From a virus (taxonomy: Duplodnaviria; Heunggongvirae; Uroviricota; Caudoviricetes), in the IMG/VR virus record IMGVR_UViG_2734482790_000003: DNA of 38,122 bases; one strand, given 5' to 3'. The notes beneath the pieces were generated by a model. That model saw only the letters and a program-made list of their open reading frames with translations, did no database searches and was not told where the DNA came from. The position numbers and the translations under genes are program-made. Below are positions 7,943 through 10,857 of this stretch, one piece after another. How positions within the stretch are numbered: position 1 is the stretch's first letter; every line of letters begins with the position of its first letter.

Positions 7943-9802
7943 TTAGTGAGGGCTGGTTATTACGTAGTCGCTCTGGTCATCCTCTCCCAGCCTCTCAGGT
8001 ATTAAATCGTTGAAGGAAATAGTATTACTCTTAGGCTTTTCTTCAATTGGAAGTTCAGCTACCCTTAATTTGAGCGGCATGGGGCAGACGATACCACTAA
8101 AAATACAGGTTCCTGTAGATAGCGTTGGAATCGACTCTTCAGTCAGTCGATCTATATATGATACTGATTTTTCAATTGCGTACAGATCATTCTGATTAAT
8201 AAGGCGATGAATAAAATAATTGTGTGCTTGGGATATGATTGTCGACGATATATCATTAGGGCGTTGACTGGAAATTGTGATAAAAACTCCAAATTTTCTC
8301 CCCTCCTTTATGATTTCCTCAAAAGTTTCCAGACGATAATCTCTCCAACTTTCCGTTTCCCGAAAAGAAGTATTAGACAAAATATTGTGGGCTTCATCTA
8401 TAATGATGTGCAGTGTAGATTTCTCTGTAGACATTTTCTTCATATTGTAAGCCCACTTGGCTATCAAAAGAGGAAGCGTTTTTTTCATGGTTATATTAAC
8501 CATATTTAGATTCACAACCGTGAAATTATGTTCACCCCAAAAATCAGACTGTCCGGAAGTATCAAATATTTTGGCTATATCTTTACGGTTAGCACTCATT
8601 CTATTTATAACTGGTGAAATATGTTCAGGGTTAGACTTGTTAGATAAATATTCCTGTATTAACTGTAAGTACATAAAGTCCAACAGTTCTTCAATCATAT
8701 CAGTTTTAAATGAAAAATTGCTTGCAAGACTGAATAGATAGGAGCGCTCAGTATCAGCTTCTGTATTGAAAATACTACCACCCCTCAATTTCCATTTATA
8801 TGCAGTTGAATGATACTCAAGATCAGATATAAGTTCTGGGTCATCTTTGAAAATTGGGCTAAGAAACTGATTTATAGTATCGCATTTGGGTTTGTCGCTA
8901 CTAAAGAGATTTTGTCTGACTTTTTTCTTCAGGATATTGCGCATAAACTCAAGAGGATTATCAGCGGTCATCACTTTCTTGCGAAACTCAAGAACTCTCT
9001 TCAGGAAAGGTTTCTGTGTTTTGTCTGTTGCATCGGTTAGAACTGAGAGCATATCATGCTCAAGTAGAACCTCTCTGGGTAGAGGAAGTTTGTCACCATT
9101 TGCATGGTGCGTGTTGAGATTATAAACCGTCTTCTCGTCAGTAATACAGCGTGGGGCAGTATATTCTCCATTAAAGTCGAATAGAATAAATTTGCATCTT
9201 TCACTAAAGTGGTTGCCGAGAATATGTTTAACTTGGGCAATACCTGCTTTGTATAGCGCGGCTAGGGTATTTGACTTTCCGCTGCCTGTATTACCGAAAA
9301 TGGCAATGTGGGAATTAATAAGACCATTGATTGGTAGTGCAATTTCAATATCTTCAAGATCTGTACGAGTAAACCTCATTACAGTTTCGTCTGCATCAGC
9401 TATCTGATGAACCGTCTGTATCATCTCTTCAGTTACCACGAAGACTTCATTGCCGATGAGAGGTAGTTCACGCGAACCACCAATGAAGCAACCAGTACGA
9501 TCAATGTAACCCGTAAGAGTAGAGGTCAGGTATCGCCGATATCGCCAGGCATCACTGCCGCTCCCAGCGAGATGTTTTTCCTCAATGATTCGTTCCGCTT
9601 CAACCTTGCCGATCAGGCTCATGAAACCTTTTTTGATCTCAATGAAGCTACCCACTGATACATTTCTTAGAACTTTTCCCTGATAAAACAAGTCACTGAG
9701 ATTTTTGTTTTTATCGACCAAAATTGTCACAGCGCGTCCAGAAACCTCACAGACTTCGCCTATACGGAGCACCGCTTCCTCTTCAGTAAAATGCCTGCTC
9801 AT
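7943..9802 (-). CDS. herA: HerA/FtsK-like ATPase, partner of the SIR2 protein (SIR2-HerA defence system)
   Basis: Walker A GNTGSGKSNT and Walker B/DEAH-like IIIDEAH. Start taken at MSRHFTEE with GGGAGG SD, overlapping the SIR2 stop (ATGA). AT-rich composition. Confidence 0.75.
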   Translation of the reverse strand: MSRHFTEEEAVLRIGEVCEVSGRAVTILVDKNKNLSDLFYQGKVLRNVSVGSFIEIKKGFMSLIGKVEAERIIEEKHLAGSGSDAWRYRRYLTSTLTGYIDRTGCFIGGSRELPLIGNEVFVVTEEMIQTVHQIADADETVMRFTRTDLEDIEIALPINGLINSHIAIFGNTGSGKSNTLAALYKAGIAQVKHILGNHFSERCKFILFDFNGEYTAPRCITDEKTVYNLNTHHANGDKLPLPREVLLEHDMLSVLTDATDKTQKPFLKRVLEFRKKVMTADNPLEFMRNILKKKVRQNLFSSDKPKCDTINQFLSPIFKDDPELISDLEYHSTAYKWKLRGGSIFNTEADTERSYLFSLASNFSFKTDMIEELLDFMYLQLIQEYLSNKSNPEHISPVINRMSANRKDIAKIFDTSGQSDFWGEHNFTVVNLNMVNITMKKTLPLLIAKWAYNMKKMSTEKSTLHIIIDEAHNILSNTSFRETESWRDYRLETFEEIIKEGRKFGVFITISSQRPNDISSTIISQAHNYFIHRLINQNDLYAIEKSVSYIDRLTEESIPTLSTGTCIFSGIVCPMPLKLRVAELPIEEKPKSNTISFNDLIPERLGEDDQSDYVITSPH

Positions 9803-10857
9803 CTCGAGCCTCCCAGATAGCACGTGATAATGTTATTCATTACCGGAAAATCAACATTTCTTCCCGGCCGATAAATAATCTCTACGTTTGAGTAATCCCG
9901 AAATTTCTCCATAAAGCCGTTAACACTGGCCTCATCGAAAGCAAAGATCAGTAGCTTCAGGGTGGCGTTGCGCAGGGCTTTTTTAGTTATCGTTTCAATG
10001 TGCTCATCAGCAAACGAGAACCCAAAGACAATTAGTAAAGTTGCTTCTTTATCAAGCTCGTTGGAATAGGTTCTCAGTAAATCATAATAAACGTTCTGTA
10101 GTAGAGTCTCTTTAAACTTCTCCTTACGTGGAAGAATAAGTGCATGAGCAAGTACCCATCCTTTCATTTCGGCTAGGGTGGGAAAGTCAAGCGGCTTAAT
10201 ATCTGCAATACGATAAATGATTTTCCCTTTAGAATGCTGCCAAGAGAGCGAACCATGAAGTTTTATAAGGTTAACAGTAGGAAGCTCAACTTTATAATTA
10301 TACAGATTTCCGGTTGCACTTACAGAATGATTAAAGCTACCCGCATCAAATTCCGCATCTCCCAAAATACTTGCTCTTCTATTGAATCCATCATTAAAAA
10401 GAATATTGTTATTACGTGTGGCAGCTTCTTCGATGAATAAATCATAATTAGTTGTAAAAACGTTAATACGCCTCGGAAGTAGGCCAGTTCGGCGGCGGGT
10501 CAGTATCTTTTCCAGTGAAGACATAAATGCATCATAATTTGCACGGGTACATTCCAAATCGGTGATCACCTGAGGTGCGAAGGGGGTGCCGTAGCCGCGC
10601 TTCAACATGCATTCATGAGGTAGCCAAACATCTGACAAAAAGTCAGCTGCCATCCTTAAGTATTCATCTTCCTGTTCATCATTAATAAGCTGCTGAAGAT
10701 CCGTTTCGATTGTCCCCAGTACTTTAATCGCTGGGAGGGATGCACCTGATCCGATGAGAAAGTTAATGTTAGCTGACTGAAATATCCGCTCTAAGTAGTC
10801 TCGGTCACTATCGTTACCGTAGTATGCGCGCTTGACTGCCATCTTATCCTTCCACAA
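9799..10857 (-). CDS. SIR2-like NADase-domain protein (SIR2-HerA defence system)
   Basis: Rossmann N-terminus FLIGSGAS, TTNYD motif, and HG motif (KLHGSLSW), as in defence-type SIR2 domains. Translationally coupled to herA. Confidence 0.75.
   Translation of the reverse strand: MWKDKMAVKRAYYGNDSDRDYLERIFQSANINFLIGSGASLPAIKVLGTIETDLQQLINDEQEDEYLRMAADFLSDVWLPHECMLKRGYGTPFAPQVITDLECTRANYDAFMSSLEKILTRRRTGLLPRRINVFTTNYDLFIEEAATRNNNILFNDGFNRRASILGDAEFDAGSFNHSVSATGNLYNYKVELPTVNLIKLHGSLSWQHSKGKIIYRIADIKPLDFPTLAEMKGWVLAHALILPRKEKFKETLLQNVYYDLLRTYSNELDKEATLLIVFGFSFADEHIETITKKALRNATLKLLIFAFDEASVNGFMEKFRDYSNVEIIYRPGRNVDFPVMNNIITCYLGGSR

What the first reader, a model, noticed from the sequence alone, without database searches (positions are those of the whole stretch)
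7943..10857. SIR2-HerA defence pair carried as prophage cargo next to the replication gene
A SIR2-like protein (FLIGSGAS, TTNYD, HG motifs) is translationally coupled (ATGA overlap) to a HerA/FtsK-type ATPase (Walker A GNTGSGKSNT, IIIDEAH). This matches the gene content and order of the described SIR2-HerA NAD-depleting anti-phage system. The segment is markedly AT-rich relative to flanking phage genes and sits in the variable region between gene A and the portal gene, where P2 carries tin/old.
Basis: partly seen in the sequence, partly recalled or inferred. Interest (0 to 1): 0.6.

Follow-up and report, generated by a model that had tools for sequence, protein, structure and literature searches.

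The report
SIR2-HerA defence cassette in P2-like prophage
This is an intact two-gene SIR2-HerA anti-phage system in the well-known cargo hotspot next to the packaging (cos) site of a P2/186-like E. coli prophage; both the system and the location are already catalogued, so the finding is correct but ordinary.

Summary
On the minus strand, a 347-aa SIR2 gene (9799-10842) overlaps a 619-aa HerA gene (7943-9802) by ATGA. Both match dedicated PADLOC SIR2-HerA profiles over their full length (E 6e-211 and 6e-267). AlphaFold models find the SIR2 and HerA subunits of solved SIR2-HerA complexes as their best structural matches.

The SIR2-then-HerA order holds in 79 of 80 related loci from many phyla, and dN/dS is about 0.1. 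The cassette (about 7900-11070, 40% GC) sits between a DinI-like gene and the cos site (11267-11285). This is the same slot and orientation as old-tin in P2.

The exact protein pair (WP_028985770 + WP_029364119) is already listed in the P2-hotspot tables of Rousset et al. 2022. The one open point is subtype. The pair is only about 20% identical to the characterised systems (Nezha, S. aureus, Paenibacillus) and falls far below the NCBIfam Nezha equivalog cut-offs. Its trigger and its exact enzymatic logic are therefore inferred, not shown.

A second cassette lies on the other side of cos: a HipA-like kinase plus a HIRAN protein (PADLOC PDC-M03).

The parts
9799..10842 (-). SIR2-family gene (347 aa). 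Predicted NADase effector with Rossmann motif GSGAS 31-35 and predicted catalytic residues N132 (TTNYD) and H196 (LHGS).
   Evidence: PADLOC PDLC04080, E 6.3e-211, covering profile positions 1-347 of 347. Pfam SIR2_2. N132, D134 and H196 are invariant in 57 homologues. They align with the TTNYD and HGS motifs of S. aureus Sir2 (8yhx), which contain its catalytic N226/H287 (PMC11514289). AF2 model pLDDT 84.6; the top 38 PDB matches are all SIR2 chains of SIR2-HerA complexes.
7943..9802 (-). HerA-family ATPase gene (619 aa). N-terminal beta-barrel plus RecA-like core; Walker A K176, Walker B D469/E470, conserved FDFNGEY (D209) and SQRP (R514).
   Evidence: PADLOC PDLC04097, E 5.9e-267, covering profile positions 3-616 of 618. 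Pfam DUF87/HerA central domain. Invariant residues in 53 homologues. AF2 model pLDDT 82.8; the best PDB matches are HerA chains of 8wld and 8yhx.
9799..9802 (-). ATGA start/stop overlap between SIR2 and HerA.
   Evidence: Read directly from the sequence. An in-frame HerA start lies within 14 nt of the SIR2 stop in most of 79 related loci; 32 have the same 4-nt overlap.
10860..10924 (-). Conserved non-coding block just upstream of SIR2. Inferred to be the cassette's own promoter and 5' leader.
   Evidence: Nearly invariant between the E. coli, Citrobacter, Enterobacter and Pantoea cassettes, while sequence further upstream diverges. It does not fold better than shuffled sequence (z +1.49), which fits a DNA-level signal. 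The consensus scan called no promoter here, so the function is inferred.
7904..7934 (.). Strong 13-bp hairpin just after the HerA stop, at the left edge of the cassette. Terminator-like: T-rich tail on the + strand, none on the - strand.
   Evidence: Folds at -21.2 kcal/mol, z -5.07. The consensus terminator scan did not call it.
7903..11073 (.). The transferable SIR2-HerA module, about 3.15 kb and 40% GC.
   Evidence: The same block occurs at 91% identity in an E. coli chromosomal island, 96.9% in Citrobacter amalonaticus and 91.4% in Enterobacter. Homology ends at 7895-7903 and 11054-11073. No terminal repeats were found.
11267..11285 (+). cos cohesive-end sequence of the prophage (GGCGTGGCGGGGATACGAG), inside a conserved block at 11141-11292.
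   Evidence: Aligns with the annotated 19-nt cosL/cosR of phage P2 and its flanks. The block is shared with Fels-2, Klebsiella P2-like phages and Escherichia phage 500465-1.
7565..7798 (+). DinI-like gene, the conserved left border of the cargo slot.
   Evidence: Pfam DinI, E 2.3e-22; RefSeq annotation. In phage 500465-1 this gene and the cos block are only 69 nt apart, against 3.3 kb here.

Best explanation
This is an intact, functional two-gene SIR2-HerA abortive-infection defence system, carried as swappable cargo of a P2/186-like prophage in the slot between the DinI-like gene and cos.

Shown here: gene content, order and tight coupling; conserved catalytic and ATPase residues; folds; purifying selection; and the modular, mobile nature of the cassette.

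Inferred from studied SIR2-HerA systems: the two proteins are made in the lysogen from the cassette's own promoter and assemble into a large complex, a HerA hexamer docked through its N-terminal barrel onto a ring of SIR2. That complex stays quiet until a superinfecting phage triggers it. SIR2 (N132/H196) then hydrolyses NAD+, while HerA (K176, D469/E470) supplies ATP- and DNA-dependent control and possibly nicking or nuclease activity. The infected cell stops growing and the phage fails to spread, which protects the lysogen population and the prophage.
For: - Profiles: full-length, very strong hits to PADLOC SIR2-HerA models; Pfam SIR2_2 and HerA/DUF87.
- Catalytic residues: the TTNYD and LHGS motifs (N132, H196) align with the motifs of S. 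aureus Sir2 that contain its catalytic N226/H287 (PMC11514289) and are invariant in 57 homologues. Walker A, Walker B and the arginine-containing motifs are invariant in 53 HerA homologues.
- Structure: the AF2 models' best PDB matches are the corresponding chains of SIR2-HerA complexes from S. aureus, E. coli Nezha and Paenibacillus. SIR2 proteins of other systems (KomBC, DSR2, ThsA) score several orders of magnitude worse.
- Operon: SIR2 followed by HerA in 79 of 80 loci from Proteobacteria, Acidobacteria, Bacteroidota, Firmicutes and other phyla, with overlapping or nearly abutting genes.
- Selection: dN/dS is 0.09-0.15 for SIR2 and 0.11 for HerA.
- Location: same slot and orientation as the P2 exclusion genes old-tin.
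- Published record: the identical protein pair is listed in the P2 hotspot in Rousset et al. 2022, Table S5A. NAD+ depletion and abortive infection by SIR2-HerA are reported in bioRxiv 10.1101/2021.12.14.472415, complex-dependent activation in PMC11472057 and PMC11514289, and four active E. coli subtypes in PMC13434337.
Against: - No experiment on this clade was found. It is only about 16-21% identical to the solved systems.
- It scores far below the NCBIfam anti-phage SIR2 and HerA equivalog cut-offs: 99.8 against 500 bits, and 138.7 against 800 bits.
- Zhang et al. 2026 cloned a representative of each of eight E. coli Sir2-HerA clusters, and four showed no protection against their panel. I could not determine which cluster this one is.
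- The enzymatic repertoire differs between subtypes: S. aureus HerA lacks ATPase activity, and type III uses a nickase rather than a helicase. The details for this clade are therefore extrapolated.
- The consensus scan found no clear sigma-70 promoter.
Confidence: 0.85

Rival explanations
1. It is a SIR2-HerA defence system, but in this divergent short-SIR2 clade the decisive toxic step is not NAD+ depletion. HerA-dependent DNA nicking or cleavage, or ATP consumption, would be the main step instead, as in the type III system where a HerA nickase is required for immunity. NADase activity would be secondary or absent.
For: Subtypes differ in their activities. Type III needs the HerA D218 nickase residue and shows no helicase activity (PMC13434337). 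Paenibacillus SIR2 is reported to have nuclease activity as well as NADase. The HerA here keeps an invariant Asp (D209, in FDFNGEY) 33 residues after the Walker A lysine. That spacing is similar to K188/D218 in type III.
Against: The SIR2 NAD-binding and catalytic residues (GSGAS, N132, D134, H196) are invariant across the clade, which argues that NAD chemistry is under selection. In every studied subtype NADase activity is part of the mechanism. The correspondence of D209 to D218 rests on spacing only, not on an alignment.
Confidence: 0.1
2. The pair is not acting as phage defence in this prophage. It could be silent or decaying cargo, or serve another role such as prophage maintenance (an addiction module) or DNA processing, like archaeal HerA-NurA.
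For: Four of the eight E. coli Sir2-HerA clusters showed no activity in the published screen. No clear promoter was called. HerA-fold matches also include archaeal repair HerA and DUF4297-HerA.
Against: Both ORFs are full length against their profiles, and all family-invariant residues are retained. dN/dS is about 0.1. The cassette is 99.8-100% identical in 13 complete E. coli genomes from different hosts. There is no NurA-like partner; the partner is always SIR2. The upstream non-coding block is conserved across genera. Pseudogenised defences are reported to be rare in P2 hotspots (PMC13586616).
Confidence: 0.05

Closest known systems
SIR2-HerA anti-phage system (PADLOC SIR2-HerA family; first reported by Gao et al. 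2020, as cited in PMC9122126)
   Same: Two co-oriented genes, SIR2 then HerA. Full-length profile matches, conserved catalytic and ATPase motifs, and folds that match solved complexes.
   Different: None at the level of the family. It belongs to one particular PADLOC sub-profile (PDLC04080 / PDLC04097) with a short, 347-aa SIR2.
Nezha (E. coli Sir2-HerA cluster 1; PDB 8J4U, 8SU9)
   Same: Same architecture and predicted fold: TM 0.65-0.67 for SIR2 and 0.55-0.61 for HerA. The TTNYD and LHGS motifs align.
   Different: About 17-20% identity. phmmer E-values are only 1.5e-11 (SIR2) and 1.9e-20 (HerA). It falls far below the NCBIfam equivalog cut-offs. SIR2 is about 70 residues shorter.
S. aureus SaSir2-HerA (PDB 8YHX / 8YHO)
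   Same: The nearest solved SIR2 by sequence (E 3.5e-21), with the catalytic-motif Asn and His aligned. HerA is among the best fold matches, TMt 0.71.
   Different: About 20% identity, and SaSir2 is 428 aa against 347 aa here. SaHerA is reported to lack ATPase activity; whether this HerA hydrolyses ATP is unknown.
Type III E. coli Sir2-HerA (Zhang et al. 2026, PMC13434337)
   Same: Same species and family. It offers a possible model: sensing of phage SSB, a HerA nickase, and an ATP checkpoint on the NADase.
   Different: The published key residues (Sir2 N238; HerA K188 and D218) do not fit the numbering here (N132; K176, D209). This is therefore probably another cluster.
P2 old-tin exclusion genes / the P2 gpA-gpQ defence hotspot (Rousset et al. 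2022, PMC9122126)
   Same: Same slot, between the early operon and cos, and the same leftward orientation with a promoter near cos. Same role as lysogenic-conversion cargo. The exact protein pair is listed in their Table S5A.
   Different: Unrelated proteins. The backbone here is 186-like (CI, CII, Fil, DinI-like), and a second cargo slot between cos and the portal gene is also filled.

Membership tests
SIR2-HerA defence system | A SIR2-family protein with a Rossmann NAD-binding motif and catalytic Asn/His | tested here: met
   Pfam SIR2_2 at 48.3 bits against a cut-off of 24.5. GSGAS 31-35, N132 and H196 are invariant in 57 homologues and align with the S. aureus Sir2 motifs that contain catalytic N226/H287.
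SIR2-HerA defence system | A HerA/FtsK-type ATPase with an N-terminal barrel, Walker A and B motifs and an arginine motif | tested here: met
   Pfam DUF87/HerA at 70.1 bits. K176, D469/E470 and R514 are invariant. The AF2 model has a beta-rich N-terminal domain followed by a RecA-like core, and its best matches are HerA chains.
SIR2-HerA defence system | The two genes are adjacent, co-oriented and form one operon | tested here: met
   ATGA overlap. The same order holds in 79 of 80 related loci; the remaining locus ends at a contig edge. Junctions are overlapping or very short.
SIR2-HerA defence system | Match to curated defence-system profiles | tested here: met
   PADLOC SIR2 PDLC04080, E 6.3e-211; HerA PDLC04097, E 5.9e-267; both full length.
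SIR2-HerA defence system | Assembly into a SIR2 ring plus HerA hexamer complex that activates the NADase | not testable with these tools
   Only monomer models could be made. The property is known from PMC11472057 and PMC11514289 for other members.
SIR2-HerA defence system | Protection against phage, with NAD+ depletion and an abortive-infection phenotype | not testable with these tools
   Needs an experiment. Reported for other members.
Nezha subtype (NCBIfam SIR2_antiphage / HerA_antiphage equivalogs) | Score above the equivalog cut-off | tested here: not met
   SIR2 scores 99.8 bits against a cut-off of 500; HerA scores 138.7 bits against 800.
Type III E. coli Sir2-HerA (Zhang 2026) | Positions of the published key residues (Sir2 N238; HerA K188, D218) | tested here: not met
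   The corresponding residues here are N132, K176 and D209. The 106-residue offset in Sir2 implies a different architecture.
P2-like cos-proximal defence hotspot | Located between replication gene A and portal gene Q, next to cos | tested here: met
   gpA lies at 4799-7213 and the portal gene at 13124-14164. cos at 11267-11285 aligns with the annotated P2 cos.
P2-like cos-proximal defence hotspot | Cargo varies between otherwise near-identical prophages | tested here: met
   Strain 1916D18 has the same backbone and the same SIR2-HerA but carries ParA plus a RelA/SpoT-domain gene in the cos-portal slot. Phage 500465-1 has no SIR2-HerA and carries a TIR-domain gene beyond cos.

The most novel reading that the evidence does not exclude
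The short-SIR2 clade (347 aa; PADLOC PDLC04080/04097) could be a functionally distinct and so far uncharacterised Sir2-HerA subtype, with its own phage trigger and gating logic. Its placement opposite a HipA-like kinase/HIRAN module across cos could then reflect two complementary abortive-infection systems that both read phage DNA ends or replication intermediates.
Probability: 0.15. Interest if true: 0.4.

Novelty: already known. Interest (0 to 1): 0.15.

Why it matters
It adds little that is new. SIR2-HerA is an established NAD+-depleting defence family, and the P2 gpA-gpQ/cos hotspot is an established reservoir of such systems. This exact protein pair already appears in a published hotspot table, and a dedicated PADLOC profile exists for it.

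The residual value is practical. This is a compact (about 3.2 kb), clearly delimited, natively promoted example of a divergent E. coli Sir2-HerA clade. If no published experiment covers it, it would be a reasonable candidate for asking how triggers and gating differ between Sir2-HerA subtypes. It also illustrates cleanly how one cassette moves between a chromosomal island, other Enterobacterales and a prophage hotspot.

Tried and rejected
- Searching for the P2 cos 19-mer with up to 3 mismatches found nothing. A local alignment to the P2 end junction then located cos with 4 mismatches.
- I looked for terminal direct or inverted repeats that would suggest a transposon-like cassette. Only short, chance-level matches were found.
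- I looked for a third gene or an RNA in the 580-nt SIR2 / HipA-like intergenic region. Rfam gave no hit there and there are no tRNAs. The 54-aa ORF at 11159-11323 lies across the conserved cos block and was not pursued as a gene.
- I tested whether the conserved block upstream of SIR2 is a structured RNA leader. It folds no better than shuffled sequence, so I read it as a promoter or DNA-level signal.
- I tried to assign the pair to one of the eight E. coli clusters or types I-III of Zhang et al. 2026. No supplementary files are held and the text contains no accessions, so only type III could be excluded, and only by residue numbering.
- The consensus scan gave no convincing minus-strand promoter upstream of SIR2.
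- In the dN/dS script, the HerA comparisons for four loci were off by one codon. Only the L083 HerA value and the SIR2 values are used.
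Full report
**1. What is in the sequence**

Between 7943 and 10857 the minus strand carries two long ORFs. The upstream one is best read from ATG 10842, which is preceded by GGAAGGA, to the TGA at 9799-9801, giving 347 aa. The downstream one runs from ATG 9802 to the stop at 7943-7945, giving 619 aa. The HerA ATG and the SIR2 TGA share the tetranucleotide ATGA. RefSeq annotates a 100% identical E. coli locus with the same coordinates and lengths, as 'SIR2 family protein' WP_028985770 and 'ATP-binding protein' WP_029364119.

- SIR2: GSGAS 31-35, TTNYD 130-134, LHGS 195-198.
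- HerA: GNTGSGKS 170-177, IIIDEAH 466-472.

The segment is AT-rich. The cassette is 40.1% GC, against 53.0% for gene A, 52.1% for the portal gene and 54.9% for the structural region.

**2. Identity of the two proteins**

Profile searches:
- PADLOC gives full-length matches to dedicated SIR2-HerA models: SIR2 PDLC04080 (E 6.3e-211, profile positions 1-347 of 347) and HerA PDLC04097 (E 5.9e-267, positions 3-616 of 618).
- Pfam gives SIR2_2 and DUF87/HerA above their gathering scores.

Comparison with solved structures by sequence finds only distant relatives. The best SIR2 hit is S. aureus Sir2, 8yhx, at E 3.5e-21. The best HerA hits are Paenibacillus 8wiv and S. aureus 8yho, at about 1e-27 and 1e-26. 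E. coli Nezha (8j4u) scores only 1.5e-11 and 1.9e-20. The alignments nevertheless put this protein's TTNYD and LHGS motifs onto the S. aureus motifs that contain N226 and H287, the catalytic dyad according to PMC11514289.

Conservation within the clade:
- In 57 SIR2 homologues (40-90% identical), G31, G33, A34, S35, N132, Y133, D134, H196, G197 and S198 are invariant.
- In 53 HerA homologues, the Walker A motif (G170-K176), D209-Y214, the Walker B residues D469/E470 and S512-P515 are invariant.

Structure predictions:
- The AlphaFold2 models are confident: SIR2 pLDDT 84.6 and pTM 0.86; HerA pLDDT 82.8 and pTM 0.78.
- For SIR2, the first 38 Foldseek matches in the PDB are all SIR2 chains of SIR2-HerA complexes from S. 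aureus, E. coli Nezha and Paenibacillus (E down to 3e-16, TM 0.55-0.67). KomBC, DSR2 and ThsA follow only at E 7e-7 or worse.
- For HerA, the best matches are HerA chains of the same complexes. DUF4297-HerA and archaeal HerA follow.

**3. Is it a real two-gene system?**

A scan of one genome per species found 458 relatives of the SIR2 protein. In the 80 best loci, a HerA homologue lies immediately downstream on the same strand in 79. The remaining locus ends at a contig edge. These loci span Enterobacterales, Alteromonas, Vibrio, Acidobacteria, Rhizobiales, Bacteroidota, Clostridia, Paenibacillus, Patescibacteria and others.

An in-frame HerA start lies within a few bases of the SIR2 stop in nearly all of them, and 32 have the same 4-nt overlap. 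One caveat: that script chose the start codon nearest to the stop, which biases the result towards short junctions.

Against the 91%-identical copies, dN/dS is 0.12-0.15 for SIR2 and 0.11 for HerA. Against a Pantoea copy it is 0.09 for SIR2. The pair is thus an ancient operon under purifying selection.

**4. Where it sits**

The window is a P2/186-like prophage. Its recognisable parts are an integrase, a CI repressor, CII, Fil, a Dam-type methylase and replication gene A (4799-7213). These are followed by a 62-aa ORF and a DinI-like gene (7565-7798). Further right come the portal gene (13124-14164, minus strand), the terminase and the structural genes.

The 19-nt cohesive end annotated in phage P2 (GGCGAGGCGGGGAAAGCAC) and its flanks align with window 11235-11293. 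This places cos at 11267-11285, reading GGCGTGGCGGGGATACGAG. The surrounding block, 11141-11292, is the only part of the region shared with Fels-2, Klebsiella P2-like phages and Escherichia phage 500465-1.

The SIR2-HerA cassette therefore occupies the slot between the DinI-like gene and cos and is transcribed leftward, away from cos. In P2, old and tin have exactly this position and orientation, with their transcript starts about 150 nt from cosR. In phage 500465-1 the end of the DinI gene and the cos block are 69 nt apart; here they are 3.3 kb apart.

**5. The cassette is a mobile module**

Homology to other copies ends at 7895-7903 on the left and 11054-11073 on the right. Other copies are:
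- 91% identity in a chromosomal island of E. coli 873.10, next to ypjA, flanked by a restriction endonuclease, a TPR protein and an IS3 element.
- 96.9% identity in Citrobacter amalonaticus.
- 91.4% identity in an Enterobacter genome.

None of the 80 non-E. coli loci has P2 gpA or portal homologues within 7 kb. No terminal repeats flank the module. The left edge coincides with a strong hairpin at 7904-7934 (-21.2 kcal/mol, z -5.07).

A non-coding block of about 65 nt immediately upstream of SIR2 (10860-10924) is almost invariant from E. coli to Pantoea, while sequence further upstream diverges. It does not fold as RNA. I read it as the cassette's own promoter and leader. This is an inference, because the consensus scan called no promoter there.

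Among 5,426 complete E. coli genomes, 16 carry at least 80% of window 7800-11440. Thirteen of these are at 99.8-100% identity with the DinI and cos flanks, i.e. in this prophage type. In one of them, strain 1916D18, the cos-to-portal slot carries a different pair, ParA plus a RelA/SpoT-domain gene. The two slots on either side of cos therefore vary independently.

**6. How it most likely works**

Shown here: gene content and order, tight coupling, conserved NAD-binding, catalytic and ATPase residues, SIR2-HerA-like folds, purifying selection, and hotspot location.

Inferred from characterised members:
- SIR2-HerA systems deplete NAD+ on infection and behave as abortive-infection systems (bioRxiv 10.1101/2021.12.14.472415).
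- SIR2 alone is auto-inhibited and is activated when it assembles with the HerA hexamer into a supramolecular complex. HerA's N-terminal barrel inserts into the SIR2 ring (PMC11472057; PMC11514289).
- In an E. coli type III system, phage SSB and Gp5.9 are triggers. A HerA nickase and an ATP checkpoint gate the NADase (PMC13434337).

By analogy, the lysogen would express the pair constitutively, as P2 does with old-tin. A superinfecting phage would trigger it. NAD+ would be hydrolysed through N132/H196 under HerA (K176) control, and the infected cell would arrest. Which phage component triggers this clade, and whether its HerA is an ATPase, helicase or nickase, is unknown.

**7. Comparison with what is known, and novelty**

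Membership in the SIR2-HerA family is met on every feature that can be tested computationally.

It is not the Nezha subtype. The NCBIfam equivalog scores are 99.8 bits against a cut-off of 500, and 138.7 bits against 800. Identity to Nezha is about 17-20%.

It is probably not type III either. That system's key residues are Sir2 N238 and HerA K188 and D218, against N132, K176 and D209 here. Zhang et al. describe eight E. coli clusters, four of them active. I could not tell which cluster this is, because no sequences or supplementary files were available.

The location is the published P2 gpA-gpQ, cos-adjacent hotspot (PMC9122126; PMC13586616). Rousset et al. list 'SIR2 + HerA (Gao et al., 2020)' as system 14 of that hotspot, using a different variant as the representative. 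Their Table S5A lists exactly WP_028985770 + WP_029364119 (SIR2_2 + DUF87) with DinI in several genomes.

The finding is therefore correct and already known. The only open point is that this divergent clade may lack published experimental characterisation.

**8. Verdict**

- Observation: confirmed.
- Interpretation: supported.
- Novelty: already known.
- Interest: low (0.15).
- Most novel reading not excluded: this short-SIR2 clade is a mechanistically distinct subtype, possibly cooperating with the HipA-like/HIRAN module across cos. Probability about 0.15; interest if true about 0.4.

Noticed in passing
window 11438-13089 (+): A second cargo cassette lies between cos and the portal gene. It has a 304-aa HipA-like kinase (11438-12352) overlapping a 246-aa HipS-like/HIRAN protein (12349-13089). 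It matches PADLOC candidate PDC-M03 A and B (E 2e-122 and 3e-93) and Pfam HIRAN. It looks like the hipIN module of Gerdes et al. 2021 (PMC8262856). It is system 20, 'HipA_C | HipA_C/HIRAN' (150 occurrences), in Rousset 2022 Table S5B, differing by one residue. I found no report of a defence test for this E. coli version.
   Followed up: partly
window 11141-11292, cos at 11267-11285: The prophage cos site splits the gpA-portal variable region into two independently varying cargo slots. In P2 itself only the left slot (old-tin) is filled, and cosL lies 187 nt from the Q stop.
   Followed up: yes
L084 8044-9827 (E. coli 1916D18, NZ_CP046000): A near-identical prophage with the same SIR2-HerA carries a ParA-family gene plus a RelA/SpoT-domain gene in the cos-portal slot instead of the kinase/HIRAN pair.
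   Followed up: no
L083 (E. coli 873.10, NZ_CP061754) 4484-7653: The same SIR2-HerA module (91% nt identity) lies outside any P2-like phage, in a chromosomal island next to ypjA. Its neighbours include a restriction endonuclease, a TPR protein, an ankyrin-repeat protein and an IS3 element.
   Followed up: partly
window 10860-10924 (-): A non-coding block of about 65 nt upstream of SIR2 is nearly invariant from E. coli to Pantoea although the flanking sequence diverges. It has no RNA structure signal. It is probably a promoter or operator; no regulator has been identified.
   Followed up: partly
window 7904-7934: A strong 13-bp hairpin (-21.2 kcal/mol, z -5.07) lies between the DinI-like gene and the HerA stop, exactly at the left homology breakpoint of the cassette. 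A weaker hairpin (11040-11081, z -2.2) lies at the right breakpoint.
   Followed up: partly
window 35345-35423 (-), 35503-37188 (-): The host sRNA gene rybB (Rfam, 105 bits) and an Asp-Al_Ex/TrkA_C transporter gene lie just beyond the Ogr-like gene (35016-35267). A TetR-family gene flanks the integrase side in the identical genome. The prophage therefore appears to be inserted next to the 3' end of rybB.
   Followed up: no
window 24370-27978: There is an apparent invertible tail-fibre segment. It has a tail-fibre gene (24370-25956) and an assembly gene (25953-26558) on the + strand, and an alternative fibre C-terminus (26992-27384) and assembly gene (26530-26970) on the - strand. A serine invertase (Resolvase + HTH_7, 27367-27978) follows. 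GC content drops to 0.43-0.49 here.
   Followed up: no
window 3885-4802 (+): A DNA adenine methylase gene lies immediately upstream of, and overlapping, replication gene A (RefSeq annotation of the identical locus). It may have an anti-restriction or regulatory role.
   Followed up: no
L001 5215-5643 (Escherichia phage 500465-1): A related P2-like phage carries a TIR-domain gene in the cos-portal slot and IS21-family (IS100kyp-like) gene fragments inside its replication region.
   Followed up: no
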